NCBI GenBank assembly: GCA_000934665.2
Contig: JYFJ02001671.1
Coordinates: forward strand, 53,090-73,089
Reading direction: 5' to 3'
Source of the DNA: Catajapyx aquilonaris
Lineage: Eukaryota
Length of the DNA stretch: 20,000 bases
Positions 1 through 17,693 of the stretch are shown piece by piece. The notes beneath the pieces are model-generated. The model worked only from the letters and a program-made list of their open reading frames with translations. It did not search any database and had not been told where the DNA came from. The first letter of the stretch is position 1. Each line of letters begins with the position of its first letter. Position numbers and translations under genes: made by a program.

Positions 1-205
1 AAGCTTTTCTTTCAGCTTTCCAACTTTCCTGGTCAGACGAAATGCAATTTTAAAAAGCCATGATGATGTCGCATTTGTTAATGCAAAAGAAATTAAACTT
101 GCATTCATGATGGTTCATGTGGAGTACAAATAATTAACATGAGCCCCTGGGGCCGATGTTTCTTTTCCCCTTTTCCATTCCAATCCTCTCCGTTTTGCGA
201 AACAG

Positions 206-409
206 TTCTGAACATCACGCTGATCGACTTGCCGGGTCTGACCAAAGTCCCAGTTGGTGACCAGCCTGTGGATATTGAGGCACAGATCAGGGACATGCTC
301 ATGCAGTTCATTACCAAGGAGACTTGCCTTATTCTGGCTGTCACTCCTGCCAACACTGACTTGGCCACGTCTGATGCCCTCAATCTGGCCAAAATGACGG
401 ATCCTGATG
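206..409 (+). CDS. shi: Dynamin GTPase-domain exon, copy A (G3/switch II), candidate mutually exclusive exon
   Basis: acag|ttctg...gatg|gtaaaa; 204 nt, phase 1-1; encodes (V)[67 protein letters not shown](G). Confidence 0.9.
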
Positions 410-3400
410 GTAAAATAGGACAAGAAGCAGTCAGGGGGGCGGTTTTCGTTTTGCATGAAGATCAGTGTTGCGTACATGTTTCCCTTTGATGTTTCCGCAC
501 AGTCAGGTTACGTTAGCATTGTCAATGCCTGACGTCTCGAAGAGTTATTTTACTCGCACAATTGTATTTTTCGTTTGCTGTGCCACCAGCTTGATACATT
601 GTCTTATTTTTTGTTCGTTTTTTTTGTTTCTATTGCTTTTCAGTCCTGAGCCTGACCCTCATTGACCTCCCAGGCATGACCAAAATCCCTGTAGGTGACC
701 AGCCTGCCGACATAGAGACCCAGATCCGCAACATGATATTGCAGTTCATCAAAAGGGACTCGTGTCTCATTTTAGCCGTGACCCCGGCCAATGCCGATCT
801 GGCCACTTCCGATGCCTTGAAAATGGCCAAGGAAGTTGATCCGCAAGGTATCTCTTTGCTTTTATTTTTTTGAACAATAAGGAAGAGTTTGAAAGGAAAT
901 ATAATAGTCAGATCACTAATTTAAAGGCAAAGTGAGACACTCTAATATCCCAATTGCGTATTCACTCGCAACTAACCGATCTTTTTCATGCCAAAGTGTA
1001 GTGTGAGGATAATGGTGATGTATTATTTACCCCCGCTTTGCATGAATGTCTCAAATTGCATGCTTTTAACACTTGAAGGGTCGCCCCAAATAATGTTGTA
1101 AGTGATTATTGTAACCCATGTCACTTACAACAGTATTCGGGGCGACCCTTCTTGTTGATGTTTTTATTTGTTCTGGGGTTGATTTCACGTCCGTCATGAG
1201 TTGTTGCCGGGATCGACTGACTTTGTGTCTGTGACAGGTATGCGGACCATTGGTGTGATAACCAAGCTTGATCTTATGGATGAGGGAACGGATGCCAGGG
1301 ATATTTTGGAGAACAAACTGCTCCCGCTGAGGAGAGGTTACGTAGGAGTTGTCAACAGGAGCCAGAAAGACATTGATGGTAGAAAAGACATTAAGGCGGC
1401 CTTGGCTGCGGAAAGAAAGTTTTTCTTGAGGTAAGTCGTACATCAAATTAAGATTTTCTCGAGTGTAATATTGTGCATCTCTCTCGCCTTTTAGCCACCC
1501 ATCGTACAGGCATATGGCGGACAAGTGCGGCACACCGTACCTGCAGCGGGTTCTGAATCAGCAGTTGACCAATCACATTCGGGAGTGCTTACCCAGCCTC
1601 AGAGATAAACTCCAGAAGCAGTACTTGCAGCTGGAGAAGGAAGTGGAACAGTTCAAGTATTTTAGGCCGGACGACCCTGCAATCAAGACTAAGGCTATGC
1701 TGCAGTAAGTTTTGTTTGGATCCGATGTTATGACTGTTGCAACCATGAGCACTGAGGATTGCCCTTTCCCTTCAACACAGGATGATCCAGCAGCTCCAGT
1801 CAGACTTTGAGAGGGCCATCGAGGGATCGGGCTCGGCCAACATCAACACGAACGAGCTGTCGGGTGGAGCCAAGATAAATCGCCTTTTCCACGAGCGGTT
1901 CCCGTTTTTGATAGTCAAGACAGAGTTCAACGAGAAGGAGCTGAGGAAGGAGATTGCCTTTGCCATTCGCAACATTCACGGTATCAGAGTCGGACTGTTC
2001 ACTCCTGACATGGCCTTCGAGGCCATCGTCAAGAAGCAGATAGAAGGCCTGAAGGAACCAAGCCTCAACCTTGTAGATCTGGTCGTTATTGAGCTGTGCA
2101 ACGTAGTCCGGTTCTGCACAGACAAGGTAATGCTATGACCTTCGTATGACCTTCAAGTGAACTATGAATAGTTAGGCGTTTATTAAATCATAAGTGCCTT
2201 TCGTGGGCATCACTTCTCATGAAATCTTCCCTCTTAGATGGCAAGGTATCCCCGCTTACGGGAGGAGACCGAACGCGTCATAACGACACACATCCGCGAA
2301 AGGGAGCAGATCTGCAAAGCACAGATACTTCTGCTCAATGACTGCGAGCTGGCCTACATGAACACCAACCACGAGGACTTTATCGGGTTCGCCAAGTGAG
2401 TAAACCGCCCTTTTTTCCATTTCCTGTCACTTTTTTATATATTCAAAGAGCATGCAGTTGTCGTTTTAGGTCATAGATCTTGTAGACGTGTATTGGGTTC
2501 GGGGGCAAAATTTTGGTAAGGATTTCAATGTTTTGCCATGGGGTTCAATCTAGTGAGTGATGAAATGGTCTGCCTCACCATGCCATCACGAGATTGTTAT
2601 GGCGTTTATTTTTTTTCAGTGTTACCATTTTTAACCGTTCCACCCCCCACTTTATAGGTACGATTTATTTGAGCCTGATACGATGGGGCCGGGGAAGATG
2701 ACCAGGCAGGCCAGTTGCACCGGGTGACTAAAAATAGATCTTAAAAAAAATAAACGAGCTCGTGTTTTGTGATAATTAAAAAGCTTGTTGCCATCCCCTC
2801 ACTCACTAAGATTGACTTTGCTGCTAACCCCGTATAGCCAAGCCTCATTACGGCTTCTATTTATTTTGGTGTGCAAGTATGAAGTGAAAGGGGGTGTGAA
2901 ACGAGGGAAAAAAAAAGAAAGGTGTGCCATGCTGACATCATTAATCAAAAGATTTGTAATTTCACAGTACCAAAGAGTTGCTTTTATATAATTTTTTTAG
3001 TAGTTATGTGTGGTTTTTTTTAGTGCATGGAGGAGTATTTTATTGGGTACAAAAATGACAGTTTGCTTTCGAGTGTGTCCGAGTGAAGGAACACTAGCGG
3101 CTTACATGAATACACCATTTATTTATCTGCTCCAACATGTGAACGCGTCGAGTAGTTTGTGATTCCGCAAGATAAATACCGACCATTTGCTCCCCAAAAT
3201 GCTCCTGCACAAAAAATATTTTAAAAAGGTATCGTGGCAAGATTAATGATGGTAACTTTAAGACTTGAGTTGCATTATTCCCAGTTAATGCATGACACAT
3301 CTATTTTAAGTAATATACCCTCATTGGACATTTGCTTTTTTTTTAAATTAAAAAAATAATAATAAACATACATCTCCCATTATTTTAAAACCCAAGACTT

Positions 3401-6400
3401 TTTTTTGGGGGGTAGGCTGGGTTTGGATTTAAGATTTATCCACTGAAGTTTTATCCACAAGTTTTGTATACACCTTTGGGGGAAATGGTGTAACGAGACT
3501 GTATCGCATTGTAAAGTAATGCTTTCACTTTAAAGGCTGCAAAGTTTCCATCCGGCGGACAGAACAGAACGGTCAGTTTACCCAAAGACCTCCTCTAGTC
3601 CAAGCATTTTTAGTTCTGCACAAAACTCTCATATATATTATAAACTATATCGAAAAGTCATTTGCTACTTGACTTTTTTCAAAAAAAGCACGAGGCAAGT
3701 TGTTCAGGACTGACGGCCATCCCATTTTTTTTTTTTTTTTCTCTCTCTCGCTCCTCCCATCCTTTTCGCTTCTTGATCGTTACGGAACAAACCCTGCCTC
3801 AGTGCCCAGCAGAGCAGTGAGAACGCAGCAAAAGCAGGCCGCAAGCTTGGCAACCAGGTGATCCGCAGGGGCTACATGTGCATCCACAACCTGGGGATCA
3901 TGAAGGGTGGATCCAGGGACTACTGGTTTGTTCTCACCTCGGAGAGTCTCTCCTGGTTCAAGGACGAAGAGGTCAGTTGGTCACGTATTTTTAATTGCAC
4001 ACTTGCGCTGGGTTAAGATTTTGGCAATTGCCCGGACCCCTCCGCCACGCTCGCTTCCTCTGCCATGAGGTTGCAAGTGCCAGTTTATGAACTCGAGGGG
4101 AAGATTAATCGCCTCTGTTAAGGAAGCACCTGATTTCGATTCAGATGGAATGTGGGTGTGCCGTAAACAGTGGGACAGATCAGGCACCTCTTATGTCTCG
4201 GTGTGAAAAGTATGATTCCTTTTGGGAGACATGAAGTAATACTTTTTTTTACCGCGTTTGCAGGAGAGAGACAAGAAGTACATGCTTCCTCTTGATGGCC
4301 TTAAATTAAGAGACATCGAGCAAGGGTTCATGTCTCGAAGGCACACATTTGCCATTTTCAATCCAGAAGGGCGAAATGTTTATAAGGTAAGAACCATTTT
4401 TGCCGCCCCCACCTTTTTAAAGTTACGACTTAAATGCAACGTTTGAAATTTGCAGGACTACAAGCAACTCGAGCTCAGCTGCGAAACTGCGGAAGATGTC
4501 GACTCTTGGAAAGCTTCGTTTCTCAGGGCTGGCGTTTATCCCGAGAAGGCTTCGGATCAGCAGAACGGAGACGAGGTCAGTTCGAAATTATCGCTTGGCA
4601 ATGAAAACCAGGGTTTGCAAAGTCCTGTGTTGTTTATGACAATGTGCGTAACTAACACCTTGTCTCTTTGCCCTCTTTTGTTATAGGGAACGGTAAGTGT
4701 TTAAAAATGGGGAAACCTAACTCCAAACAGTTACGACCTAACCTCCCTCCCCACTCAAAAAAGAAAAGGTGAGGTTGATCAGATCCAGTTTGTAGTTGCA
4801 ATTTTAGTTCTGTTTTTTTTGGCAGGCTGGAAACCTTATCCTCTTGATACAGTATTGCTGGGCTCAGTTTCGTTTTGCAAGGGGAGTGGTGTTTGGTTGC
4901 TTTATTTTCCCATGTATCTTTGCGTCGTACATTTTGGTTGGGTGCTCTTGATTTACTGTTACACATTGCTTTACTTAGTTGGAAGCGATGCAGTCCGACT
5001 GGCTATTTTTTATTTACGTTGTTGCACCTCACTATTGCCTGTGTACAAAATAAGTGCACCACATTGTACTCGAATTGATGATCAATAGGTTTTGAATATA
5101 ACTGGGTAAAGTTAAACGATAGTTACTCGATCACTGCGGCAGACCAGATTGAATTGAGCGATGTTATGCCATACTAATGCGGAAATAGGTCACGTAGTTG
5201 TTGATATTTTTCTATGGCAGTGTCTTTACATGGTTTGCAGCAGTATTGCAGCTGCATTGTACTCAATAACTTCGTACAGTTTTGCTCTTTGAACTTGGGG
5301 AAAGGGGTTGCTGCCCTCATTCCGCAAACATGATGAAGATATTAATTAGTGCGAATATGCCAGAGTTGATGGAAGGAGGGCAGTGTGTGCCACGGTGTCC
5401 TTTTGTGTACATACAAATATTTTCACGCCTGATGAGCATCGAATGATGGGAGTGCGAGCTACTTGTCCCTCCCTGATCTTCGATGCTCCTTGCAAATATG
5501 TTTTTGTGTTGTTTTTTTCCCTTCAATGTGCTTTCCCTAAACCATGTTTCTTCTTTCCAAAAATGGCCAAAAATGCTGGTTTCTACAGAATGAGGTGTGT
5601 TCTGCTTAAATGAAATTATTGGTGCATGCAGTGCATTTTGATTTGTGTTTTCTTGCTGCCTGTGCACGGATCTCTTAGCGAGTACCTCGGAGCTTAAATT
5701 GTGCAACTCACATTTGCTGCGTCTGTGTATTTTTGCAGCCGATTTTACACCTTTGTTTTTATCACACGAAACAAATTTTAAGTAGTAGGAAAACGGGAAT
5801 TAGCTCTTTTGTTGCATCTGTCAATAACTACAATTACCTGCCAGTTTCTTCGAGAAATATTTTTGCCAAATTGTAAGTCACTTTTCGAACTATTGCGATA
5901 ATGTTTGATGAAGGTTGTGTTCCAATCCATCCTTTACCCTGGAGTGCGCATGAAAGTAGCCTGTGTTGAGAACCTTTGCACTTGCAGTTGGTTGACATAT
6001 ACTTCCCATGAGCTTACTTGATTACCGCTGGGATTAGTCCGCTGCCTAATCGCAGGCTGGCAGAAATTATGTGAAAGTGACGCATGGACTATCGATTAGC
6101 AGTCGCAGTACCAAGTAAGATTTTGCGGAGGTATGTTAGTGCTCATTCAACACTGGATGTGAAATAGCGTGTTAGGCATACACTGTCGTGTGAGTGTATT
6201 TTATCTGGTGTGCCTTCTTCTCCACCTTTCCCTTTGCCTTTATCGACTTTCTCAGTACATTTGGCGTAGTTTGCATGGATGGGAAGCCTAATGGAAATGC
6301 ATTTTCTTTGCGCTCCCAACCACCCAAAGCAGAGTGGCGGGGACACGTCATCCCTGGATCCTCAACTGGAACGCCAGGTGGAGACGATACGCAACCTGGT

Positions 6401-9400
6401 GGACTCTTACATGAAGATTGTGACCAAGACCACCCGTGACCTGGTGCCCAAGTCAATCATGAACCTTGTCATCAACGATGGTAAGGACTTCATCAACGGG
6501 GAGCTGCTGGCCCAGCTCTACGCCACGGGCGACACGGTCAGTAGCGTCACTTTGGCCTGAAGCTAGGAGAAGCCTGACTCAATGGGGCTTCACTCTTTCA
6601 GCAAGCGATGATGGAGGAGAGTCAGGAGGAGGCGCTTAAGCGAGAGGAGATGCTGCGGATGTACCATGCATGCAAGGAGTCTCTCAGAATCATCGGGGAC
6701 GTCTCCACGGCCACTGTCTCCACCCCACTGCCGCCTCCAATCAGAGGAGGAGACGACCAGTATCTTAGGACAGGTTCAGAGAGTCCCAGGTACGGTAGAG
6801 GTTTGCAGATTGCATCGTGTCGGGCATGACTCCCATTAGCATCAATGCGTTGTTGTGGATGCTGCTTGGTTCCCACTAAAGAGAGGCAGTTGATTCTGCG
6901 GCTATGCTTATTCCCTGATAAGAAAATTGCAATTCATTATTGAAACACCTGTAAAAAAAATTTGAATAGTTGATATCCGCATTTTTAGAGCCACCAGTGT
7001 TTGGGAAGACGAGAAAGCCTAAATATTATCTGCATGTCTTGTCGCTTTTGGTGTGTAGTTACATTTGTCGTTTTTTTTTCTCTCCCCCTCCCTTACCAAC
7101 TCTCTCCGCATGCCCATTGTCGCCCTGTTCTCCTGCTTTTGGTTTTCCCGTCTCCTGTACCCCCTAACCGTATCCAGTCTCCCCAGGCAGCCTCCGTCGT
7201 CACCTGGTGGCCCAAGGAGGGGCCCTCCTCCCACGGCTCCTGCCGCAATGGCCCCAAGCGGAGGTGGGAGGGGCCCCCCTCCAGTACCACTCACCAGGCC
7301 TGCTCCGTCTGTGCCCAACAGGCCCACAGCAGGGGCCCCGCAGGGTGGTAGGCCAGGGGTAGGACTGCCCCCACCGCTCATCCCTTCGTAAGTACACTTT
7401 GTAACATTGCATGTTGTGTTTAAGGAGGTTAGAGGTACAACCAAAGGTACGACCATCTGTAAACGCAAACCAAATCATTGGCCGCAGTCATTAATTCATC
7501 AAGTGTGTATAGATGGTCATACTTTTCGTGTAGGATGCGTAGTGCTTTGGAGAACAAGTGTTTTGTGCATTAACCGTGGAAAGGTGCTTAGAAATTGTAC
7601 GAGCCAGCCAGCGTTTAGAACACAAGTACGTAAGCCGAAGTGACGTAAAGTCCATCCAATCATCAGTAGTGGGAAGTACATGTAGATTGAACTTATCCGC
7701 ACATTTTTGGACAATACCATTTGGCAAGTGTGATCAGAGTTTGTGTTAATCTTGTGTGGAAACATGTCTGCTGCGAAATCTGATAGAAATGTAGTTAATG
7801 TGGTTGTAGAGTAGTTATTCTCTGTCTTGATGATGGAGGCAAATTTGATATTAGCTTTTGTCGTAACCCGTGTGATAACAGGCAAAATTTTTAACCAGAT
7901 TTGGAAAAGGTGCAGTTCCATTTTGTGTAATGCTTCCCGATTCATCTAGTTGTGATTTTATTTGCAGGCTTGTTATTCATGATCCGTCTTACGTTGCCCA
8001 TAAGAAAAACGCCACGGTGTGATGTTTTGGCGGAGAAGTTTGTGGCTGGTTTTTCCAAGCAGCACAGAGGCTCGTTATCGTGGCCCTAATAAAAACCCAC
8101 TTGTTTTCCCGCGCACTATGCATGTCATTAGACATAATTACCGTACTCTATCAGCAAGTGGACCTTTTTTTTTTCTTTTCCTATTTTGTATGATCTCAAT
8201 TCCTTCGAGATTGTCACCTCTGCACAAAATAACAATATTTAAACCCCTTCCCGAACTAAACAATAATAATAATAATTGTTTACTTCTAGAAGGGGTTTCA
8301 ATATTGTTATTTTGTGCAGAAGTGACAATCTCTCACTTTTCGGGTGTTTCTTTTGCCCTTCGAAAAGTGCGAGCGCAAGATGTGACTAGTGAAGGTTCCT
8401 TCACTAGTCACATCTTGCGCTCGCACTTTTTGCAGCTTTTGGAACCTATTGTTGTTCATTCAGCTCCATTGGTGCATGGCACTAACTTTTTTTCCGCATT
8501 GGGGGATATCACAGTGTTAACGCAATGCACCACTGGTCCAGTTTATATTTTTTGGTGTATTAAACGAGAAGTTGTCTTCCATACCTGGAGATCAGAGTTG
8601 GTTTTTTTTTTTACTCCTGTGTTTTTTGGTGTGCTTTGGAACAGGATGCTTCGAAAATAGTGTACTGGGCATCTCTGAATTGTTATATTTTGTACTGTCA
8701 AATTTGTGGTAGCGAGGCATCCTGCTACAGTCCGTCACACAGTAAATGCTTTACTGTGTGATGGACTGTAGTTGCTTGTTTTTCCGCGGTCATGTTAGAC
8801 CTGGGACGTAGCCAATTAACATGAACTTTCGTAACGATTAACCAGCATGCGAGTGTCCCAGATCTAATGTGCCCCGTGCACGTGATGCTTTCCGTAGAAC
8901 TAGTGAAAGATAAACAGTGGTGCATTTTCCAGTGCATTAAAAAAAAATTACATGCTTTTTGCTTTTTTTTGACTTCTTCCCCCAATTGGGTGTGTTCATA
9001 TAATTAATTCCCATTATTGCCCCCAACAAAACTGGTGGACAGGGTTTTGGCAAAGCCTTTATCTTTAATCTTCTTTTCTGTCGTCTCCTCCCCACTTTTT
9101 TTTTGTTCGTTCTCTTTCGCCAACTTGAAACAACAAGGCGCACCTCGCCCCAACCTCGTTGAGTGTGCACAAGGACAAAGCGGACTTGTTCTAGGTTTAG
9201 GTTCCACTTGGCACTTGATTGTAGGAGAAGGAGGAGGAGGAGGAAGGGGGGATTAAAAAAAAAAAGAGTAACAAAATGAGAAGAAGTGTGGCTTATATAG
9301 TTGTTTAAGAATCTACGAATCAAGCTCTCTCTTGGTCTCTCTCGTGTTGTTGTTAATTGCTACTAATCGCTGCAATAATGTCAAGTTTGGCAGCACTTTT

Positions 9401-12400
9401 CCCGGGGGAAAGGAAGCTCCGAAGGGGGGCCACAGTTTGCAATGTCGACTGCCTGGGGCCGTTGTTGTAAAAGCGGCAGTGGAAATTGCAAGCTGCTCGT
9501 ACTGTGTTTTTTTTGGCCTGTTTGCCGTTATAGATGTTTGCAAAAATAGTAGAAGAGAGAGGGGTCCAAATAATGTGGGTGTCAAAATGTGGAGGCGATA
9601 ACTATTGTCAAATTGGGCCATTTGCAGCCGGCAGGGGGGAATGCCCCCAATACCACAGCGGGTGCAGCAAGCCATGGGACAAGCGGTGGCCAATGCAGCG
9701 GTGAATGAGTTAATGGACATGTTCGGCAGTCATAAGTAAGCCCACCCCAGTGTGTCCCCCCCTTCAAAAAAATGCAATACAATCCAAATCCCCAAATCCC
9801 GTCCCCAAGAACGAAGCTCTCTTTAGTTGGTCTGTGTCTAATCAACTCTAAAAAAAAGAAATTCCGGGGAAACTGAGAAAAAAAGTGTGAATAACTTCCT
9901 AACCTCCCCCCGATTGTGTTGTGGTTTTTTAGTCAGTTTAAAACAAATAATCTGCCTTAGGCAGGAGCATGCTGGCTTCAGTGTTTTTGGGAAAGAGCAA
10001 AAAAAAAAAAGGCGGACACTGCAATGTAAGAGCTTTGTGGTGAGGGATCTTTCTCTTTTTGCGGTAGAGCTCATGCCAAACATCTCTCGCACTCAAAATT
10101 TTTAATTCCGATCAGTATTTAAATGCCGAGCTTGGCAGTTGCTTTTTTTTGGGGGTTTGGTTTTGTCCGTGCAGGCTTTGGGGATTTGTTAAAATGCAAG
10201 TGCGGGAAAGCACAGGTGTAATTTTAGTGCTCTCTATTGTAATGTGTATATAATAATCGGTATGTATAATGGACAAGTAAGACAACAACTCAAAAAAAAA
10301 GAGCAAAAAAAAATGGAAAAATATTTGCCTTGCACCCGTTGTTTTTTCTTTGTCCGCTAATTAGTAACATCAGTCAATTATTAACCCAAGTAATAATGCA
10401 CCTGTGCATTAAGTAGTTTTCACAATGTCATATTTATATTTTACTGTTGTAGATATTGTTAAATAACGTTAATGGTTAAGTGAAAAAAAAAGGAGACGTG
10501 GTTATGTAACGAGAGGCCCTCTCTCGATGTTAACTCCCCAAACGTTGATGTAAATTTTAAAAAGAAAAAAAAGCTTGTTGACTAATTAAGTGTGGGGGAT
10601 GATGTTGAAGAAATTTATTGCCGTTTGGTTTTTCTTTGCGATTAACCGAAGCGAATTAAAACATTCCAGCTGTGTTGTAGCCTCTGTGTTTTAGAGAGAA
10701 AAAAATAAAAAAAGTAAAATATGGGAAAACGGATAATGTGAGTAGCAAGTTTAAAAAGCAAAAGGCGTCTCGCACACAGTCTAAAATAGGCTCTTAGACT
10801 CAGTATTCATTCCAAGTTTTTGTGATGCGTGTTTGCACATGATGTCTTAGGTCTGGTGATCGTTACAGTTTTTAAATTACGGTTTTAATTATTTCAGTTA
10901 CCATTTTTAAAAACTCCCCCTCCCCCACGGGACATGAGATGTTTAAAAGGCAGGGATCTGTGCAAACTGTATATTCTTCAGTCCTCAAAGGCATTGAATC
11001 TATATTACTACGGTACATAATTATATTATATATTCCATGTATGACGTGTTATCGGAGGAGATTGTAAGATTTTCAGGGCGGGAAGGGGGGGAAATTAGCA
11101 ATGGAAGATAACATTTAAATGAAAAAAGCTTCCTTGGGTTATTGAATTGCCTCAGGATTAATTAAAGTCAATTTATTTTTTTCCCCCCGCAAATTTGGAT
11201 ACTCAGTAGGTGATATGCAATGTCATGTATAGCAGCGGAATTAATTTCTATAAGCCATCGGCTTTTTTTTTTCTTCAAATGCGGCAAGACTTCCGAGTCG
11301 ATGGTTGTACCTGAGAAAAATTTTGTTTTAAATAATTTTGTTCGTCGATCCTTCGTTACCATGTAGTGACTTTTAACTGTAGAAAAGCATAACGATGTAA
11401 TATTCACTCCTTAAAAAATCCAAGGCCTCAGTAATAGTGTGATATTAAACTGGCTGTTGAGTTGTGTGATTAGCGTTTTAGAATGTGCAAGTATTGCCTC
11501 CAAAAAAAAAAAGAAAGTCACTTGCGGTGTTTTTAAACGCACTGTTAGCGCATGGACGTCAAATTGTGTCGCAGTACTTGCATATTTGAGCACCAGGTCA
11601 CATGCGAACTGCTTTTTTGGATCATGTCATGTGTCACCTCTCGAGGGTCACATTATGCATTACTTCCCATGTCAGGGGGCAGGTGTATGTTAAGTAAAAC
11701 CACTCGAAGCAGAGTATGCTGCACATGTAAATTATTATTTTTAATATGTGTGAACCTCACGAGTGGGAGGTTGCTCTTTTTTTTTCTGGGAGTGTTTGTG
11801 TGGATATTTTATGTCCTCGACCCTTCCTCCCCTTTTCCCCGTTCAAATAAGAAAAAAATATCCTCCTCCCTCCCTTTTACCTCACACGTGTAAGTTAAGA
11901 TCCATATGTGTATGTGGGAGCTGCAGAATTAAATAAATGTTGCAGTATACAAGAGCCCAAAATTTTGCGTGAATTATACAAAATAATAATGGGTGCTGGT
12001 TTCTTCCGAAGAAAAAAATAGACACATGGTTTTGAACAAGAAAAATTACACCCAACGTTTCACACGCTTTTGCTCTGTCACGTAGTTTTTGTCACGTAAA
12101 TGTTTCGAGGTTTCAAAATAGCACCACGTTTTTAGCTTACATGTACATTATTTTTTTATTGCCGTCTCAGTGGTTTTAGTGTGTTCTGTGTGAGGCTGGG
12201 AAAAATTGTACAGTTCCATGTGGCATTACTGGCGTAAACTTCGAGTAGGGAATTATACTGAAACGAAAAAGGAGCTCCCCCGAAGCTCCGGTGGTTAGAA
12301 GTGGTCATTGCCACGGAAAACAAACAAAGTGGGCAAAATTGGTTGAAATAAAGTCTTCCATGTACAAGGCAAGGAAACCTTCATTGCTATTTATTTTCAC

Positions 12401-13196
12401 ACACAACATACATCCAGATAATGCCCTCTTTAAAAATATATATATATATATTTGTAGCGGTAAAGTTGAGTAAGTGCATCTGCGATTTGACAATAATGTT
12501 CATGTGCTCGGATCGTAACGATCGGCTCTTCATGCCGAAATGTTGTTTAACGAGGCAATTTCCATCTGCCAATTGGCACAATTAGTACTGAACATTTAAA
12601 TTACTTGAACCTTTAAAGTAATGTGGGATTGAAAAAAAAATTTCACTGCAGTTTGACCGGGTAAAAATTCTCGAGGCAATTTTGGCTGATCTTAATAATT
12701 GTAATTAGTGTGCGCTTGCTCTGCTTTACCTTACACAAGTTTTTAAGTGACAAGGCAAATTGTGGCGTGCTTTCTTAGCCGTGCTGCTGGTCCAGTTTTT
12801 TTTTAGGAGTGTTGTTGTATGTTTTATGCTTTGGTCTCTATAGTTCTGATTATTAATGTGAGGTAATCGATATGTTTTAGTTCATAGTTTTTATTACAGG
12901 TGCACCGCTTTGGCACAATAACTCCCTCCCCCAACACTAGCTCGGCATGTTAGTTGCATGATCTTGCAACTAACAGTTGACTAACCTTGCATGGCATCCA
13001 CCGTAATTAACACCACGTTAAAGTTGATTGCCACTGTCACAATATTTTGATGTTGACGCAACTTCCCAAAGACACAAAACAAAACCCGAAGAAACTTGAC
13101 AATTTCTTTTTACTGTTTTCATTTTTTAGGCGACCTGTACCCACGATCCCTCCTCGAATCCAGGACAGGCCTCCAGTTCCAGCCAGGCCAAACTAG
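206..13196 (+). CDS. shi: Classical dynamin GTPase (shibire/DNM-like), 5'-partial, multi-exon. Exons: [206-409 or 644-847], 1238-1430, 1495-1704, 1781-2126, 2238-2395, 3803-3971, 4264-4386, 4456-4575, (microexons), 6333-6536, 6602-6789, 7178-7387, then alternative 3' exons 9628-9739 and 13130-13196
   Basis: The spliced translation gives dynamin hallmarks: G3 DLPG, G4 [15 protein letters not shown], middle domain ([40 protein letters not shown]), PH domain ([26 protein letters not shown]...[13 protein letters not shown]), GED ([19 protein letters not shown]...[19 protein letters not shown]) and a Pro/Arg-rich tail. All introns are GT-AG with matching phases. The P-loop and switch I are not in the window. 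PH plus PRD indicates classical dynamin rather than Drp1/Vps1. Confidence 0.96.
644..847 (+). CDS. shi: Dynamin GTPase-domain exon, copy B (G3/switch II), candidate mutually exclusive exon
   Basis: tttcag|tcctg...caag|gtatct; 204 nt, phase 1-1; encodes (V)[67 protein letters not shown](G). Confidence 0.92.
1075..1151. repeat. Intronic inverted repeat / pre-miRNA-like hairpin
   Basis: gaagggtcgccccaaataatgttgtaagtga (1075-1105) pairs with tcacttacaacagtattcggggcgacccttc (1121-1151): 29 of 31 positions complementary, 15-nt loop. Confidence 0.85.
4687..4692 (+). CDS. Candidate 6-nt microexon (Gly-Thr) in the dynamin PH-GED linker
   Basis: Branch point taactaac (4649-4656), pyrimidine tract, then ttatag|GGAACG|gtaagt; phase 0-0 matches the flanking exons. 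Confidence 0.7.
5589..5594 (+). CDS. Second candidate 6-nt microexon (Asn-Glu) in the dynamin PH-GED linker
   Basis: About 125 nt of AG-free, pyrimidine-rich sequence upstream, then tgctggtttctacag|AATGAG|gtgtgt; phase 0-0; TGCATG at 5623-5628. Confidence 0.5.
8363..8430. repeat. Perfect 33-bp inverted repeat with a 2-nt spacer
   Basis: aaaagtgcgagcgcaagatgtgactagtgaagg-tt-ccttcactagtcacatcttgcgctcgcactttt; the arms are exact reverse complements. Confidence 0.97.
9628..9739 (+). CDS. shi: Dynamin alternative C-terminal exon (S)[36 protein letters not shown]
   Basis: tttgcag|c acceptor in phase 2 with the 7387 donor. It completes PLIPSR and resembles, from memory, the QAV..AAINEL-type tail of long insect shibire isoforms. 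An internal donor aa|gtaagc at 9735/9736 overlaps the stop. Confidence 0.8.
13130..13196 (+). CDS. shi: Dynamin distal terminal exon [21 protein letters not shown]
   Basis: Strong pyrimidine tract and ttttag|g acceptor, phase 2; Pro/Arg-rich peptide with PxxPxR SH3-ligand motifs typical of dynamin PRDs. Confidence 0.85.
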
Positions 13197-14244
13197 AGAA
13201 ATAATTTAAAAAAAGTGTGTGTGTGTGTGGGACGCTTTCGTGACCACAGTACGAACTGTGATGGGTAAGGAATAATAAGAGTCACAGCGGGCCACGTCTC
13301 GTCAGCAGCAGGAGTCGTCGAGGAGTTGCGGGGGAAAATACCAGGCAAGCCTTTTTTTTTTTACATGTTGCGGGCCCAATTGTGCGGTGCAAATAGTCAT
13401 TGCGTCTGCGCAGGGGTCCCCGAGCCTGATATTAGCCGGGGTTGCACTTGTTACCTGTACCGAGGGAAGCAAGCTGCTTTTACCAGCCAGGTGTGTGATA
13501 ATCCTTCCCATTTGAAATGTAATTGTTCTGAACAGTGACACAGTGGGTTCGAAGCCGTTACGGTTTCATGCAATTATTATTATTATTTTTTTGCCTCTTG
13601 GACACCTATTGTTTGAATCACCAACCAAGTAGTGTTGAATGTTTGTTTTTTCTTGTTGTTTGTGCGATCACTGTTGCAGTTAGGAACATTTTGTGTATAA
13701 AGTAGCCCCCCTCCCCCTGAGTACGATCACATCCTGTTAATTATTTTGTTTTGCCAAAGCCCAGCATTATAATTATTATTATAATAATATATATATTTTT
13801 GACATTGTAATGTGTACAAAACCCCCCCACACAATTGTTTTTCCTCAATAATTTGGTGCTTTTTAAACTATAGTAAAAAAGACACAACATTCCTGACCGG
13901 ATGCTCCTTTTGAAGCATTTCAGCAAATGAAAAAAGAAAGTACTGATTGTCTGAAGCTCTTTTTATTATTATTTGCATTATCCTCGTAGCTTTCTGTTGC
14001 AGTTTAATGAGGCGTTACGGTGTTTTTTTTAATGGTTTTAGCGGTAGAGCCAAAGCAACTATGGCTATTTGGCTATAAGAATATTCAAAGGTGGGACAGA
14101 TGGAGAGAGAAACGAAGAGGAAAAAGAAGAGAGGAAAGACTGGTATCTCTCTTAGTCTGTCTCCTATCCCAAAGACCTGTCCGACTTGGGCGGCCCTACC
14201 AGTAGACGAAGCTACCGCCGACATAGTTACGGCATGCAGGTATA

Positions 14245-14776
14245 CACTCTAAGAAATGTCCGGGTTAAATGTATTTATCCCGGAAAAAAGATCACTTTTG
14301 TCATGGTTATTTAACCCGAACATTTCTTAGTCATGGTTATTTAACCCGGACATTTCTTAGTCATGGTTAACCCGGACATTTCTTAGTCGTGGTTATTTAA
14401 CCCGGACATTTCTTAGTCATGGTTAACCCGGACATTTCTTAGTCGTGGTTATTTAACCCGGACATTTCTTAGTCATGGTTAACCCGGACATTTCTTAGTC
14501 ATGGTTATTTAACCCGGACATTTCTTAGTCATGGTTATTTAACCCGGACATCTCTTAGTCACGGTTATTTAACCCGGACATTTCTTAGTCATGGTTATTT
14601 AACCCGGACATTTCTTAGTTACGGTTATTTAACCCGGACATTTCTTAGTCATGGTTATTTAACCCGGACATTTCTCAGAATGTATACACTCTAACAAATG
14701 TCCGGGTTAAATAACCATGACGAAAGTGATCTTTTTTCCGGGATAAATACATTTAACCCGGACATTTCTTAGAGTG
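14245..14776. mobile_element. Two inverted copies of a short non-autonomous TIR element (CACT termini, TA-flanked; EnSpm/CACTA-like MITE): 14245-14682 with internal tandem expansion, and 14687-14776 (90 bp)
   Basis: Each copy has TIRs of the form cactctaagaaatgtccgggttaaat...atttaacccggacatttcttagagtg and is flanked by TA. The second copy is the near-exact reverse complement of the first about 85 bp of copy 1. No transposase ORF is present. The superfamily is inferred from the termini only. Confidence 0.7.
14300..14677. repeat. Tandem array of 13 units (10 x 30 bp and 3 x 26 bp), consensus gtcatggttatttaacccggacatttctta
   Basis: Counted directly; units abut with no spacers, and the 26-bp variants lack 4 nt (attt). 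Confidence 0.95.
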
Positions 14777-15074
14777 TATGAAACCATGTCAGCTGTAATA
14801 ACCTAGGCATGCTACAGCCAAATCGTATTCTTTTGAAACGAATACAGACGGTTAGCTGCCTGTGGTCTGTTTTAGCCGAGGTCAGATGGAAAAGGAGTCT
14901 GTTATATCATTCCGCGCCATTTTTTTTTTTCGAAATATTCGCCCGCCAGAGGGCCGTAGCAGTTATTTCTTTTGTCACATCCGCTGCTTATTAGTTCGTG
15001 CCAGAGCTGCTATGCTCGATTCGGTCGCCCCGATCCTCTCTGATTATTAGAGAGAAGAACAAGAGGAAGCGAAG

Positions 15075-17323
15075 ATGTCGGAGGTGGACCAGTGGATCGA
15101 GGTGGCCAAGGAGTGCAAGTACCTGCCTGAAAATGACCTCAAGGTAAGGAGGGAGGGAACACAATTGGGGGGGGTGGCCCCCGCCCCCCAAGCACCAGAT
15201 TTTGGGCAAGTAATTATTTGTACAACCCTCCCTCAAATTGAGCAGAAGCTGTGCGACATTGTGTGCGACCTTCTGTTGGAGGAATCGAACATCCAGCCCA
15301 TGTCCACCCCGGTCACCGTCTGCGGGGACATACACGGACAGGTCAGCGGGGGTCATATGGTGGGGGGGTCGTCGTAGGTTAAGGGGTTAACACGCTCTCT
15401 CCTTTTGTTAGTTCTACGACCTGGAGGAGCTGTTCCGCACGGGGGGCCAGGTCCCGGAGACCCACTACATCTTCATGGGGGACTTTGTGGACAGGGGGTA
15501 CTACAGCCTGGAGACCTTCACCAGGCTGCTGACCTTAAAGGCCAAGTGGCCAGAGAGGATCCTGCTGCTCAGGGGGAACCACGAGTCCAGGCAGATCACA
15601 CAGGTCTACGGGTTCTACGGTGAGGACAGAAGCCACTGGACTGGCTTAGTCACTTGCGAAAAGTTTGTACGTACAATGAGGCTCAAGCACGGTGCAAGAC
15701 CGGACAGGATTTGCACAGTCCGGCTGAATTACGGACAAAGTTCTTGAAATCCTTTTCAAGTCCTTCAAGTTCAGACAAAGTTTCAGAAGTCTTTTGAAGT
15801 CCGGACAAAGTTTGTGTATTCCTATTGAGATCGTTGAAGTCCAGACATAGCTTTTCAAGTCCTACTGAAGTTCAGACAACTGTCTGGACATAGTTTGTGA
15901 AGTCTGAACAACTTTGTGAAATCCTATTGAAATCCAGACAAAATTATGAAGTCCTATTGAAATCCAGACAAAATTATGAAATCCTATTTAAATCATTGAA
16001 AGCCAGACAAAATTATGAAGTCCTATTGAAATCATTGAAATCCAGACTAAATTATGAAATCCTATTGAAATCCAGACTAAATTATGAAGTCCTATTGAAA
16101 TCCAGACAAAATTACGAAGTCCTATTGAAATCATTGAAATCCAGACTAAATTATGAAATCCTATTGAAATCCAGACTAAATTATGAAGTCCTATTGAAAT
16201 CCAGACAAAATTATGAAATCCTATTTAAATCATTGAAAGCCAGACAAAATTATGAAGTCCTATTGAAATCATTGAAATCCAGACTAAATTATGAAATCCT
16301 ATTGAAATCCAGACTAAATTATGAAGTCCTATTGAAATCCAGACAAAATTATGAAATCCTATTTAAATCATTGAAAGCCAGACAAAATTATGAAGTCCTA
16401 TTGAAATCATTGAAATCCAGACTAAATTATGAAATCCAACTGAAGTCTGGACATAATTTGTGAAATCTGGCTGGAGTCTGCGACTAAATTTGTGAAGTCC
16501 TATTGAAATCCAGGCAAAGTGTGTGATGTCCGTCGTACACTATAGCATCAAGTGACTAACCCTTTGTCATAATCATGTGATCACGATGATTAATTACAAT
16601 AATTATGATTCCAGATGAGTGTCAAAACAAGTACGGGAATGCGAATGCGTGGAGGAACTGCTGCAAGGTGTTCGATCTGCTCACGATCGCGGCGGTAAGC
16701 TCTGTTGCGATACTAATTAAGGGGCGTAATTGACACCGGGTTTTTGAATCGCAGCTTATAGACGAGAAGGTGCTGTGTGTTCACGGCGGGCTTTCTCCAG
16801 ACATACGCACGTTAGACCAGATACGGACCATAGACCGCAATCAGGAGATTCCACACAAAGGTACACGGTTTGGTAAGTTCTGTCTGATAAAAGTACTGAA
16901 CATGTTTTGTCGACAGGTGCATTTTGCGACTTGGTGTGGTCCGATCCGGAGGATGTCGAGGGTTGGTCCGTTAGTCCCAGAGGCGCAGGTTGGCTCTTTG
17001 GGTCGAAGGTTACTCACGAGTTTATGGATATTAACAACCTCAAGCTGATATGTCGAGCGCATCAGTTGGTTCATGAAGGTACGATTGTGTCAGGTGCGTC
17101 ATGTATGATCTAATTGTCATCTGATTTTGCAGGGTACAAGTACATGTTTGACGACAAGCTGGTGACGGTGTGGTCCGCCCCGAATTACTGTTACCGCTGC
17201 GGTAACATCGCATCCATTTTGGCCTTCACAGACGCGGATACCCGCAGCCCGAAGCTTTTCCATGCCGTTCCAGACTCCCAGAGAGTCATACCTCCCAGGC
17301 AGACCACGCCTTATTTCCTCTGA
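15075..17323 (+). CDS. PPP6C: Serine/threonine protein phosphatase 6 catalytic subunit (PP6/PpV/Sit4), 303 aa; exons 15075-15143, 15246-15341, 15412-15619, 16615-16694, 16755-16860, 16917-17078, 17133-17323
   Basis: PPP motifs GDIHG, GDFVDRG, RGNHE, HGGLSP, RAHQ and SAPNYC; PP6-type N-terminus [23 protein letters not shown] and C-terminus TTPYFL. The exons sum to 912 nt (303 codons plus stop), all introns GT-AG. Confidence 0.96.
15918..16430. repeat. Intronic minisatellite (8 x 30-bp and 7 x 39-bp units) in PP6 intron 3, with degenerate flanking copies over about 15700-16530
   Basis: Unit gaa(a/g)tcctattgaaatccagac(a/t)aaattat; the 39-bp variant carries an extra 9 nt (tgaaatcat-like). It lies inside intron 15620-16614. 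Confidence 0.93.
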
Positions 17324-17693
17324 ATGAAATGCCCCCCCGCCATCTCGTTAATAATTTTTGATATACAGAAACTTGACAATGTGAGGCCAACAATTGCACG
17401 CGATTTAATCTGCAGTATTTGTGCGTCATGAGTGGATGTACATATAGCATTCCGAGTTGTTTTCAGTGTTCGGGGGAAAACATTAAAAAATGAACTGTTA
17501 GTTTTTACATTCGTATGAGTGTGGCGGACTGTGAATTTGCCTCTGATGAATTAATAATAAAAATGTGACCATACGCCCTGATAATTATTGCTTCGCTAGG
17601 TTTGCATGCGTAGGAAGTTCTGTTTGTCTTTTAGTATCGTGCGGAATAATGGTGATCAATATCATGGTGTACGTTGCAATGCAGTGCACAGCG

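What the first reader, a model, noticed from the sequence alone, without database searches (positions are those of the whole stretch)
206..847. Tandem duplicated, apparently mutually exclusive exons for the catalytic core (G3/switch II) of dynamin
Seen: two 204-nt phase 1-1 exons separated by a 234-nt intron. Both are open, have intact splice sites, encode the same 69-residue segment (50/69 identical by manual alignment) and differ heavily at synonymous sites. All downstream exons are single copy. Known: this segment carries the DLPG G3 motif, switch II and the loop used in G-domain dimerisation, whereas the classic vertebrate DNM1/2 mutually exclusive pair (exon 10a/10b) lies in the middle domain. 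Inference: the gene makes two GTPase-core variants ([15 protein letters not shown] versus [15 protein letters not shown]). Each exon is a multiple of 3, so double inclusion would not cause a frameshift and exclusivity must be enforced some other way. I cannot tell from the sequence whether a homologous pair is already annotated in other arthropod shibire genes.
Basis: partly seen in the sequence, partly recalled or inferred. Interest (0 to 1): 0.75.

Follow-up and report, generated by a model that had tools for sequence, protein, structure and literature searches.

The report
Alternative catalytic-core exons in arthropod dynamin
This arthropod's dynamin gene carries two old, intact copies of the exon for the centre of its GTPase domain, apparently used one at a time, a widespread arrangement in arthropods that fruit-fly relatives seem to lack and that I found described in no paper.

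Summary
Exons A (206-409) and B (644-847) are each 204 nt, share the same phase and have AG/GT borders. They are 50/69 residues identical, with saturated synonymous divergence and low dN. The only run found is a transcriptome of the same organism. It joins the upstream constant exon directly to B and B to exon 1238, skipping A. RNA containing A was not seen in this species.

The pair is old and widespread. Ab initio models of cockroach, cricket, water flea, ostracod, isopod, copepod, centipede and spider carry both copies 68 residues apart. NCBI isoform models and 23 of 23 arthropod-like cDNA-type metagenome contigs carry exactly one. No A-type form appeared among holometabolous insects.

One addition: the intron that follows the A-type exon holds GCAUG, the Fox-1/Rbfox motif, in 9 of 10 two-exon lineages (1.4 expected). 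This suggests a factor-driven switch. No convincing competing RNA pairing was found.

This scan found the same pair before on another genome (e1-7589536). It is visible in public gene models. Eight literature searches found no paper describing it. I file it as a new member of a known kind, of moderate interest.

The parts
1..205 (+). 3' part of the intron upstream of exon A. The upstream constant exon lies outside the window.
   Evidence: No exon-like ORF here. The RNA contig's upstream part does not lie in the window (loose end before 643). No GCATG.
206..409 (+). Exon A, the A-type alternative G-domain exon (G3 DLPG, switch II, following helix and strand, trans-stabilising loop region). It has a weak acceptor, ...gcgaaacag.
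   Evidence: It is 88-94% identical to A-type segments of other arthropods. It is skipped in the one RNA contig. Acceptor pyrimidines are 14/22, against 19/22 for B.
410..643 (+). Intron between A and B (234 nt, GT..AG), with a long pyrimidine tract before B.
452..457 (+). UGCAUG (Fox-1/Rbfox-type motif). Its GCAUG core starts 44 nt after exon A's donor and about 190 nt before exon B's acceptor.
   Evidence: GCAUG in the intron after the A-type exon recurs in 9 of 10 lineages.
644..847 (+). Exon B, the B-type (generic metazoan-like) alternative exon. It is the form present in the RNA contig.
   Evidence: Joints: upstream exon to 644, and 847 to 1238.
848..1237 (+). Intron between B and the next constant exon.
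   Evidence: Joint 845>1236 (cut +2), GT..AG.
1039..1062 (+). Two more UGCAUG motifs (1039-1044 and 1057-1062), 193 and 211 nt after exon B's donor.
1075..1151 (+). Strong intronic hairpin (31-bp arms, 15-nt loop). Any role in splicing is unknown.
   Evidence: I1, 94% complementary.: -53.3 kcal/mol, z -11.3. No Rfam family. No other copy in the window.
1238..1430 (+). Next constant exon (G4 region, start of the Dynamin_M match).

Best explanation
Exons A and B are an ancient tandem duplicate of the exon for dynamin's G3 motif, switch II and trans-stabilising-loop region, and the mRNA takes one of them at a time. The gene can therefore make two dynamins that differ only in 19 residues of the catalytic core.

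Shown: both copies are intact and conserved. The same pair occurs in many arthropods. In this organism an mRNA joins the upstream exon to B and skips A. Transcript-type sequences of other arthropods carry exactly one copy.

Inferred: B, with its strong pyrimidine-rich acceptor, is the default exon in this species. A, with a weak purine-interrupted acceptor, is a regulated exon. Its inclusion would be driven by a Fox-1/Rbfox-type protein bound to the UGCAUG 44 nt downstream of A. The same element lies about 190 nt upstream of B, where such proteins repress. One site could then both switch A on and switch B off, probably in nerve or muscle cells. The frame cannot enforce exclusivity, because 204 is 68x3.

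The isoform differences sit mainly on the helix after switch II and the helix after the trans-stabilising loop. They probably tune GTPase or G-domain dimer properties and do not abolish them.
For: Anatomy and selection.

RNA of the same organism: one contig (2569 nt, 0 other letters over four listed exon pieces) runs from the upstream exon to 644-847 and on to 1238, through GT..AG joints.

Conservation: 9 ab initio models have the two copies 68 residues apart or nearly so (Blattella, Gryllus, Daphnia magna, Darwinula, Armadillidium, Tigriopus, Strigamia, Stegodyphus; 79 in Notodromas). Nineteen metagenome loci carry two AG/GT-bounded copies. One-copy isoform models of the A type include Halyomorpha X4, Periplaneta X5, Schistocerca and Daphnia carinata X2. 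One-copy models of the B type include Gryllus longicercus and Lycorma X2/X3. All 23 of 23 arthropod-like cDNA-type contigs have one copy.

Orthology: window A matches other A copies at 55-60 of 67 residues and other B copies at 44-53. Three positions (132, 168, 196) share no residue between types in 9 lineages, and Asp158 and Glu167 are invariant in A. An A-type clade of 17 rows has support 95/75.

Selection in a Daphnia-like pair: dN/dS is 0.076/0.592 for A and 0.057/0.483 for B.

Switch: GCAUG occurs in the intron after the A-type exon in 9 of 10 two-exon lineages (expected 1.41; 0 of 200,000 simulations reach 9). After the partner exon it occurs in 4 of 10 (expected 2.06, P 0.095). GCATG is the top 5-mer by observed minus expected among 1024 (7 of 15 lineages against 1.06; the reverse complement scores 1). 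The A-type acceptor is poorer in pyrimidines in 7 of 10 lineages. The position rule for Fox-1 proteins, and their use at mutually exclusive pairs, come from passages of PMC2777236.
Against: No RNA containing exon A was seen for this species. Only one run was found, held as contigs, which drop rare variants; depth over 1-484 was 0.28.

The AU test does not reject a tree with window A and B as sisters (lnL 20.1 worse, p 0.15), so the 67-column alignment cannot formally prove old orthology.

The GCAUG lineages are not independent: six resemble Tigriopus and two resemble Daphnia. I formed the hypothesis on the window itself; without it the count is 8 of 9.

In the cockroach-like lineage the motifs lie 556-686 nt after A, nearer to B. 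One Tigriopus-like lineage (L006) has none. The window also has two UGCAUG after B (+193, +211), which by the same rule would favour B.

Some lineages have an A-type exon as their only copy (L005, L025, L029), so A-type is not everywhere a special-purpose form. No binding, tissue or enzyme data exist.
Confidence: 0.72

Rival explanations
1. Exclusivity and choice are set by competing RNA base-pairing (a docking site with selector sequences), as in Dscam1, 14-3-3zeta and Mhc and as proposed for human DNM1, and not by a GCAUG-binding protein.
For: The element at 449-459 is complementary to 78-88 upstream of A and to 985-995 downstream of B, over 10-11 nt at about 91%. Pairing with one would loop out A, pairing with the other would loop out B. 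The whole-region duplex of the upstream and middle introns is -77.6 kcal/mol, against -61.2+-6.2 for shuffles (1 of 200 as low). A background passage of the Kassiopeia paper cites Suyama 2013 for DNM1.
Against: The matches are short, AU-rich and one among 17 such pairs in 1300 nt. They centre on the near-palindromic UGCAUG, which pairs with its own kind. The middle-downstream and upstream-downstream duplexes are no better than shuffles (60 and 90 of 200). No close relative's genomic sequence was available for a covariation test.
Confidence: 0.15
2. In this species exon A is an unused relic and B is constitutive. The pair is only a remnant of an ancestral switch.
For: The only RNA contig has B and skips A, and depth over 1-484 is 0.28. 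Other lineages have reduced the cluster to one exon (holometabolous insects).
Against: A is open with AG/GT borders. It is 88-94% identical to A-type exons of distant arthropods, closer than B is to its own counterparts at 82-87%. Against B it shows 27 synonymous and 19 non-synonymous codon differences. A neutral relic this old would have decayed. The GCAUG element behind it is kept.
Confidence: 0.09
3. Both exons are included together, giving a dynamin with a duplicated 68-residue segment, as several deposited gene models show.
For: Double inclusion keeps the frame. Nine or more deposited models (for example Blattella germanica, Gryllus bimaculatus, Daphnia magna) contain both copies.
Against: Those are genome-derived predictions. 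None of 23 arthropod-like cDNA-type contigs has two copies, and this organism's contig has one. Two copies of the strand-G3-switch II unit would not fit the G-domain fold (inference).
Confidence: 0.03
4. The duplication is an assembly or chance artefact.
For: None found. The identical duplicated segments in the Tetraodon and Saccoglossus models show that such artefacts exist elsewhere.
Against: The copies are only 69% identical in DNA, with differences concentrated at third codon positions. The same arrangement recurs in independent assemblies.
Confidence: 0.01

Closest known systems
Arthropod dynamin gene models in public databases (NCBI 'dynamin isoform X..' of Halyomorpha halys, Periplaneta americana, Schistocerca spp., Daphnia carinata, Bemisia tabaci, Lycorma delicatula; two-copy ab initio models of Blattella germanica, Gryllus bimaculatus, Daphnia magna, Strigamia maritima and others)
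   Same: The same exon pair at the same place in the protein: DLPG at residues 136 and 204 of the two-copy models. The A-type and B-type signatures are the same, and the order is A then B in insects, water fleas and the centipede.
   Different: No database protein is more than about 76% identical to this gene's constant exons, so this is a further lineage. Tigriopus-like loci carry a divergent upstream copy plus an A-type copy and no B. I could not open the protein clusters to see both isoforms of a single species.
Vertebrate DNM1/DNM2 exon 10a/10b mutually exclusive pair
   Same: Tandem-duplicated, equal-phase, one-at-a-time exons in a classical dynamin gene. That pair has tissue and developmental regulation (PMC2916854, passages read).
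   Different: That pair lies in the middle domain, spans 46 residues, and by that paper is absent from invertebrates. Here the homologous exon (2238-2395) is single copy, and the duplicated exon encodes the catalytic G-domain core, dynamin-1 residues 130-195. The two pairs arose independently.
Fox-1/Rbfox-regulated mutually exclusive pairs (FGFR2 IIIb/IIIc, C. elegans egl-15 5A/5B, alpha-actinin NM/SM)
   Same: A (U)GCAUG element lies in the intron between or after the alternative exons. It enhances when downstream and represses when upstream (PMC2777236, passages). Here GCAUG follows the A-type exon in 9 of 10 lineages.
   Different: No binding, knock-down or tissue data exist here. The window also has motifs after exon B. 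The link is by motif position and conservation only.
Mutually exclusive clusters governed by competing RNA structures (Dscam1, 14-3-3zeta, Mhc; human DNM1 per Suyama 2013, cited in PMC3923563)
   Same: Frame-neutral alternative exons need a mechanism other than frameshift and decay.
   Different: No convincing docking-selector pairing was found here.

Membership tests
Classical dynamin (shibire / DNM1-3 orthologue) | Dynamin_N G domain with the DxxG G3 motif | tested here: met
   Exons A and B each match PF00350 at 57 bits (cut-off 27) and carry DLPG. They align to dynamin-1 residues 130-195. The N-terminal exons lie outside the window.
Classical dynamin (shibire / DNM1-3 orthologue) | Middle domain, PH domain, GED and proline-rich tail in that order | tested here: met
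   Dynamin_M matches on 4 exons and GED on 2. The three PH-region exons score nothing singly in Pfam, but they align to full-length dynamins that carry PF00169. A proline-rich exon lies at 7178-7387.
Mutually exclusive exons born by tandem exon duplication | Neighbouring exons of similar length, the same phase, intact splice sites and homologous sequence | tested here: met
   204 and 204 nt, phase 1-1, AG/GT at both, 50/69 residues identical.
Mutually exclusive exons born by tandem exon duplication | Exactly one of the exons in each mature mRNA, and each used in some mRNA | tested here: inconclusive
   In this organism a B-only contig was seen and no A form. In other arthropods there are A-only and B-only models and contigs, and 0 of 23 cDNA-type contigs hold two copies. 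I never saw both forms from a single species.
Vertebrate DNM1/DNM2 exon 10a/10b pair | Duplicated exon lies in the middle domain (about residues 399-444) | tested here: not met
   The window's counterpart exon 2238-2395 has no second copy. The duplicated exon maps to residues 130-195.
Fox-1/Rbfox-regulated alternative exon | (U)GCAUG in the flanking intron, conserved across species | tested here: met
   UGCAUG lies 44 nt after exon A. GCAUG occurs in the intron after the A-type exon in 9 of 10 lineages, against 1.41 expected.
Fox-1/Rbfox-regulated alternative exon | Exon choice depends on an Rbfox protein and follows its tissue distribution | not testable with these tools
   No tissue-resolved RNA exists; the one run is held as contigs.
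Competing-RNA-structure (docking/selector) clusters | A conserved docking site able to pair with one selector per alternative exon | tested here: inconclusive
   Only 10-13-nt AU-rich matches were found. One of three region-to-region duplex tests beats shuffles (1 of 200), the other two do not. No relatives were available for a covariation test.

The most novel reading that the evidence does not exclude
Arthropods outside the Holometabola make a nerve/muscle-type and a general-purpose dynamin from one gene. They would do so by swapping the catalytic core of the GTPase under a conserved Rbfox-type GCAUG switch, an exon-level counterpart of the vertebrate split into neuronal DNM1 and ubiquitous DNM2. 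The two cores would differ in GTPase kinetics or in which G domains they dimerise with. Loss of the A-type exon in the fly lineage would explain why decades of shibire work never met it.
Probability: 0.28. Interest if true: 0.65.

Novelty: new member of a known kind. Interest (0 to 1): 0.5.

Why it matters
Dynamin's GTPase core is usually treated as invariant. Known isoform diversity sits in the middle domain, the PH-GED linker and the tail. A pair of alternative core exons kept across mandibulate arthropods, and possibly all arthropods, implies that two catalytic flavours of the fission enzyme are worth keeping. It also offers natural variants that differ in only 19 residues, on the helices flanking switch II and the trans-stabilising loop, for structure-function work. 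The conserved GCAUG element makes the regulation directly testable. The apparent absence of the A-type exon in Holometabola warns that Drosophila is not a complete model for arthropod dynamin. In practice, gene predictors often include both copies, so many deposited arthropod dynamin models are wrong by 68 residues.

Tried and rejected
Whole genome of the window: not held. I could therefore not look upstream of position 1 for a further copy, and that question stays open.

RNA evidence: the look-up of sequencing runs listed one holder (X1, kind unknown, contigs, share 0.41) and no holder on record as RNA. Laying it showed spliced contigs. No part over exon A was listed (bin depth 0.28), which is not evidence that A is absent.

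As a substitute I ran a third homology search with a cricket B-type segment and compared proteins and cDNA-type contigs pairwise. No same-gene pair with different exons turned up. The best flank identity was 0.98, and that was between different species.

Phylogeny: the 67-column tree leaves the B-type copies and the ostracod and spider copies unresolved (30 of 49 branches open). The AU test of window A and B as sisters gave p 0.15.

Competing RNA structure: see the rival explanation. It is not convincing.

U12/U2 spliceosome incompatibility and steric hindrance: considered from the sequence only. B's acceptor has a long pyrimidine tract, which is U2-type. The A-B intron is 234 nt, not too short. 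I saw no distant branch point, but none can be ruled out.

dN/dS among the six cockroach-like loci: too few differences (0-8 per exon) to be informative.

Rfam: no family anywhere in the window.

Literature: eight full-text searches found no description of a G-domain exon pair in dynamin. The one held supplement of the Kassiopeia paper has no dynamin entry. Chappie et al. 2010 could not be opened under the id I recalled, so the residue range of the trans-stabilising loop (about 176-188) is from recall. I did not see the supplementary tables of the human and Drosophila exon catalogues or the Kassiopeia database itself, and they could list this cluster.
Full report
**What is there**

The window starts inside a classical dynamin gene on the + strand. 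Positions 206-409 (exon A) and 644-847 (exon B) are each 204 nt. Each is preceded by AG and followed by GT, and a 234-nt intron separates them. Both are open in the same phase.

The base that completes the first codon comes from the upstream exon, seen as the loose end of an RNA contig. It gives Val in both copies. The next exon gives Gly in both.

At the DNA level 141 of 204 bases agree. Of 67 whole codons, 21 are identical, 27 differ only synonymously and 19 change the residue. Differences by codon position are 18/6/38. dN is about 0.2, and dS is saturated (3.7 by NG86, 1.95 by LWL85).

Both copies match the same part of Pfam Dynamin_N (positions 102-156/157, 57.1 and 57.2 bits). Both align to residues 130-195 of human dynamin-1 in solved structures. 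That stretch covers the strand leading into the DLPG G3 motif, switch II and the following helix and strand. By my recall of the dynamin-1 structure papers it also covers the trans-stabilising loop.

Passages in two papers state that both switch regions and the trans-stabilising loop form part of dynamin's G-domain dimer interface (PMC5084822; PMC4774019).

None of the other ten exons seen in RNA has a second copy in the window (best off-target E 0.038). This includes 2238-2395, the counterpart of vertebrate exon 10a/10b.

**RNA in this organism**

No genome is held for the window. One public run holds the stretch (share of words 0.41, kind not recorded, contigs only). Laid on 1-14500, it behaves as a transcriptome of the same organism.

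One 2569-nt contig lies on the exons with no differing letters over the four listed pieces (643-845, 1236-1428, 1493-1704, 1781-2124). It crosses eleven GT..AG joints. Its first 440 letters lie before 643 and end in sequence that encodes the conserved end of the upstream dynamin exon. This mRNA therefore joins the upstream constant exon directly to B and B to 1238, skipping A.

Depth over 1-484 is 0.28, and no piece over A was listed. Contigs drop minor variants, so this shows the B form exists. It says nothing firm about A.

**The pair is old and widespread**

I searched 5.8 billion proteins with each peptide. The top hits scored about twice the normal bit score because they contain the segment twice.

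In nine genome-derived models the two copies lie 68 residues apart, or 79 in one case, exactly as read-through of both exons would give:
- Blattella germanica
- Gryllus bimaculatus
- Daphnia magna
- Darwinula stevensoni
- Armadillidium vulgare
- Tigriopus californicus
- Strigamia maritima
- Stegodyphus dumicola
- Notodromas monacha (spacing 79)

I set four other double hits aside. The Tetraodon and Saccoglossus models repeat an identical segment, which looks like an artefact. The Steinernema and Medioppia models are two whole genes fused.

Models named as isoforms carry one copy. The A type occurs in Halyomorpha X4, Rhodnius X4, Planococcus X3, Periplaneta X5, four Schistocerca species, Daphnia carinata X2, Bemisia X2/X8/X10, three aphids or phylloxerans, Homalodisca X13 and Polyphemus. 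The B type occurs in Gryllus longicercus, Ephemera, Apolygus, Menopon, Timema and Lycorma X2/X3.

Every named holometabolous protein in the lists is B type. These include beetles, moths with up to 13 isoforms, Hymenoptera and a lacewing. None shows the A signature. None appears among the 120 best A hits, where hemipterans at 87-91% identity do appear. This points to loss of the A-type exon in Holometabola. It rests on protein lists, not on genome searches.

**Genomic and transcript contigs of relatives**

A scan of metagenome contigs with A-type patterns gave 78 loci. I read each in three frames.

Twenty-three arthropod-like contigs are cDNA-type: the segment is flanked in frame by the upstream and downstream constant exons. 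All 23 carry exactly one copy. Thirteen are A-type, eight are a divergent type I call A0, and two are generic. I left out four further cDNA-type contigs (L062, L064, L066, L067) as other dynamin relatives, because their flanks and segments are much more distant.

Nineteen loci are genomic and carry two AG/GT-bounded copies:
- Nine cockroach-like loci have A then B, with an intron of 741-760 nt.
- Two Daphnia-like loci have A then B, with introns of 177 and 208 nt.
- Eight Tigriopus-like loci have A0 then A, with introns of 117-300 nt.

In the Tigriopus-like loci and two of the cockroach-like loci (L009, L013) both constant exons are present in the contig, so there the cluster has exactly two members. 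Three lineages (L005, L025 with L023, L029) have an A-type exon that is followed directly by the next constant exon. In L005 and L025 it is also preceded by the upstream one.

The history is thus more complex than a single A/B pair, and the window could have a further copy upstream of position 1.

**Orthology and selection**

I compared nine lineages with an A-then-B pair: the window, cockroach, cricket, a cockroach-like locus, four water-flea or water-flea-like sequences and the centipede.
- A copies agree with each other at 58.1 of 67 positions on average.
- B copies agree at 54.0.
- A against B agrees at 50.7.
- Window A matches other A copies at 55-60 and other B copies at 44-53.

Three positions share no residue between the two types: 132 (Ile against Leu), 168 (Thr against Ser/Asn/Ala) and 196 (Asp against Ala/Gln/Glu). 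Asp158 and Glu167 are invariant in A and mostly different in B. Lys188 is invariant in B.

A maximum-likelihood tree (53 rows, 67 columns) has an A-type clade of 17 rows that includes the centipede copy (bootstrap 95, SH-aLRT 75). B-type copies stay unresolved among the outgroups. An AU test does not reject placing window A and B as sisters (lnL 20.1 lower, p 0.15). The tree alone does not prove an old split; the shared diagnostic residues carry that argument.

Both exons are under purifying selection where divergence is informative. In the Daphnia-like pair L035/L038, dN/dS is 0.076/0.592 for A and 0.057/0.483 for B.

**How the choice may be made**

Because 204 is 68x3, neither double inclusion nor double skipping shifts the frame. 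The choice must therefore be made at splicing.

I found no convincing docking-selector pairing. The best matches are 10-13 nt and AU-rich. One of three region-to-region duplex tests beats shuffles, and two do not.

What does stand out is UGCAUG at 452-457. Its GCAUG core starts 44 nt after A's donor and about 190 nt before B's acceptor.

Across ten lineages with a two-exon cluster, the intron that follows the A-type exon contains GCAUG in nine. The expected count is 1.41, and 0 of 200,000 simulations reach nine. The intron after the partner exon contains it in four (expected 2.06, P 0.095). The motif tracks the A-type exon whether that exon is first (window, Daphnia-like) or second (Tigriopus-like).

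In an unbiased count of all 1024 5-mers in positions +7 to +135 after the A-type exon in 15 lineages, GCATG ranks first by observed minus expected: 7 against 1.06. None of 5000 shuffles reaches 7. The reverse complement scores 1, and the upstream control window scores 1. No GCATG lies in the 300 nt before the first alternative exon in any of 20 loci.

The A-type acceptor has fewer pyrimidines than its partner in 7 of 10 lineages. In the window the counts are 14 and 19 of 22.

Fox-1/Rbfox proteins bind (U)GCAUG. They enhance an exon from its downstream intron and repress it from its upstream intron, and they are known regulators of mutually exclusive pairs such as FGFR2, egl-15 and alpha-actinin (PMC2777236, passages). 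One element between A and B could thus turn A on and B off.

This is inference. The caveats are these:
- The lineages are related to one another.
- I formed the idea on the window itself.
- The cockroach-like motifs lie far from A.
- One lineage lacks the motif.
- The window also has two UGCAUG after B.

**Comparison with what is known, and novelty**

The kind of feature, tandem-duplicated exons used one at a time, is well known. Within dynamin the known pair is vertebrate exon 10a/10b in the middle domain. The fitful-mouse paper states that this pair is absent from invertebrates (PMC2916854, passages). The present pair is a different exon, in the catalytic core.

It is already present in public gene models. 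An earlier follow-up in this scan reached the same reading on another genome (e1-7589536). Eight full-text searches found no paper describing it. I did not see the large supplementary catalogues of mutually exclusive exons.

I file it as a new member of a known kind.

Noticed in passing
window 7387 to 9628 and 7387 to 13130: The dynamin mRNA ends in two alternative 3' exons joined to the same donor (depths 14.6 and 28). One gives a tail of about 37 codons. The other gives a 22-codon proline-rich tail. A UGCAUG lies 21 nt after the shared donor (7408-7413), and two more (12955, 12988) lie before the distal exon.
   Followed up: partly
window 1075-1151: A near-perfect 31-bp hairpin (-53.3 kcal/mol, z -11.3) sits in the intron after exon B. 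It matches no Rfam family and has no other copy in the window. It could be a foldback element, a small-RNA precursor or a splicing structure.
   Followed up: partly
window, whole: TGCATG occurs 27 times on both strands, against 13.9 expected (1 of 200 shuffles reaches 27). Several + strand copies lie next to alternatively used splice sites of the dynamin gene.
   Followed up: partly
window about 15050-17330 (+): Exons of a PPP-family serine/threonine phosphatase catalytic subunit lie here (PP6-like, by my recall of the sequence). Its introns hold long tandem repeats, seen as repetitive ORFs at 15894-16463.
   Followed up: no
window 14473-14694: A tandem repeat appears as an ORF of reiterated units of about 8 residues, just downstream of the dynamin 3' region.
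   Followed up: no
window 17550-19814 (+): Three long open frames lie in series (243, 159 and 224 codons). They probably belong to another gene. I did not examine them.
   Followed up: no
L004, L006-L008, L016, L021, L032, L036 (metagenome loci): Tigriopus-like dynamin loci carry a divergent upstream copy (A0) plus an A-type copy between the constant exons, and no B-type exon. Eight cDNA-type contigs use A0 alone.
   Followed up: partly
L005, L025/L023, L029: In these lineages a single A-type exon is followed directly by the next constant exon; in L005 and L025 the upstream constant exon is also seen. A-type can therefore be the only form.
   Followed up: partly
L003:1562-1762: An A-type exon is preceded by an intron acceptor but fused in frame to the next constant exon. 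This may be a partly spliced transcript or a processed copy.
   Followed up: no
P0006 (Tetraodon), P0010 (Saccoglossus), P0017 (Steinernema), P0020 (Medioppia): These deposited dynamin models hold the segment twice for other reasons: identical repeated blocks, or two whole genes fused. They are annotation artefacts, not exon pairs.
   Followed up: partly
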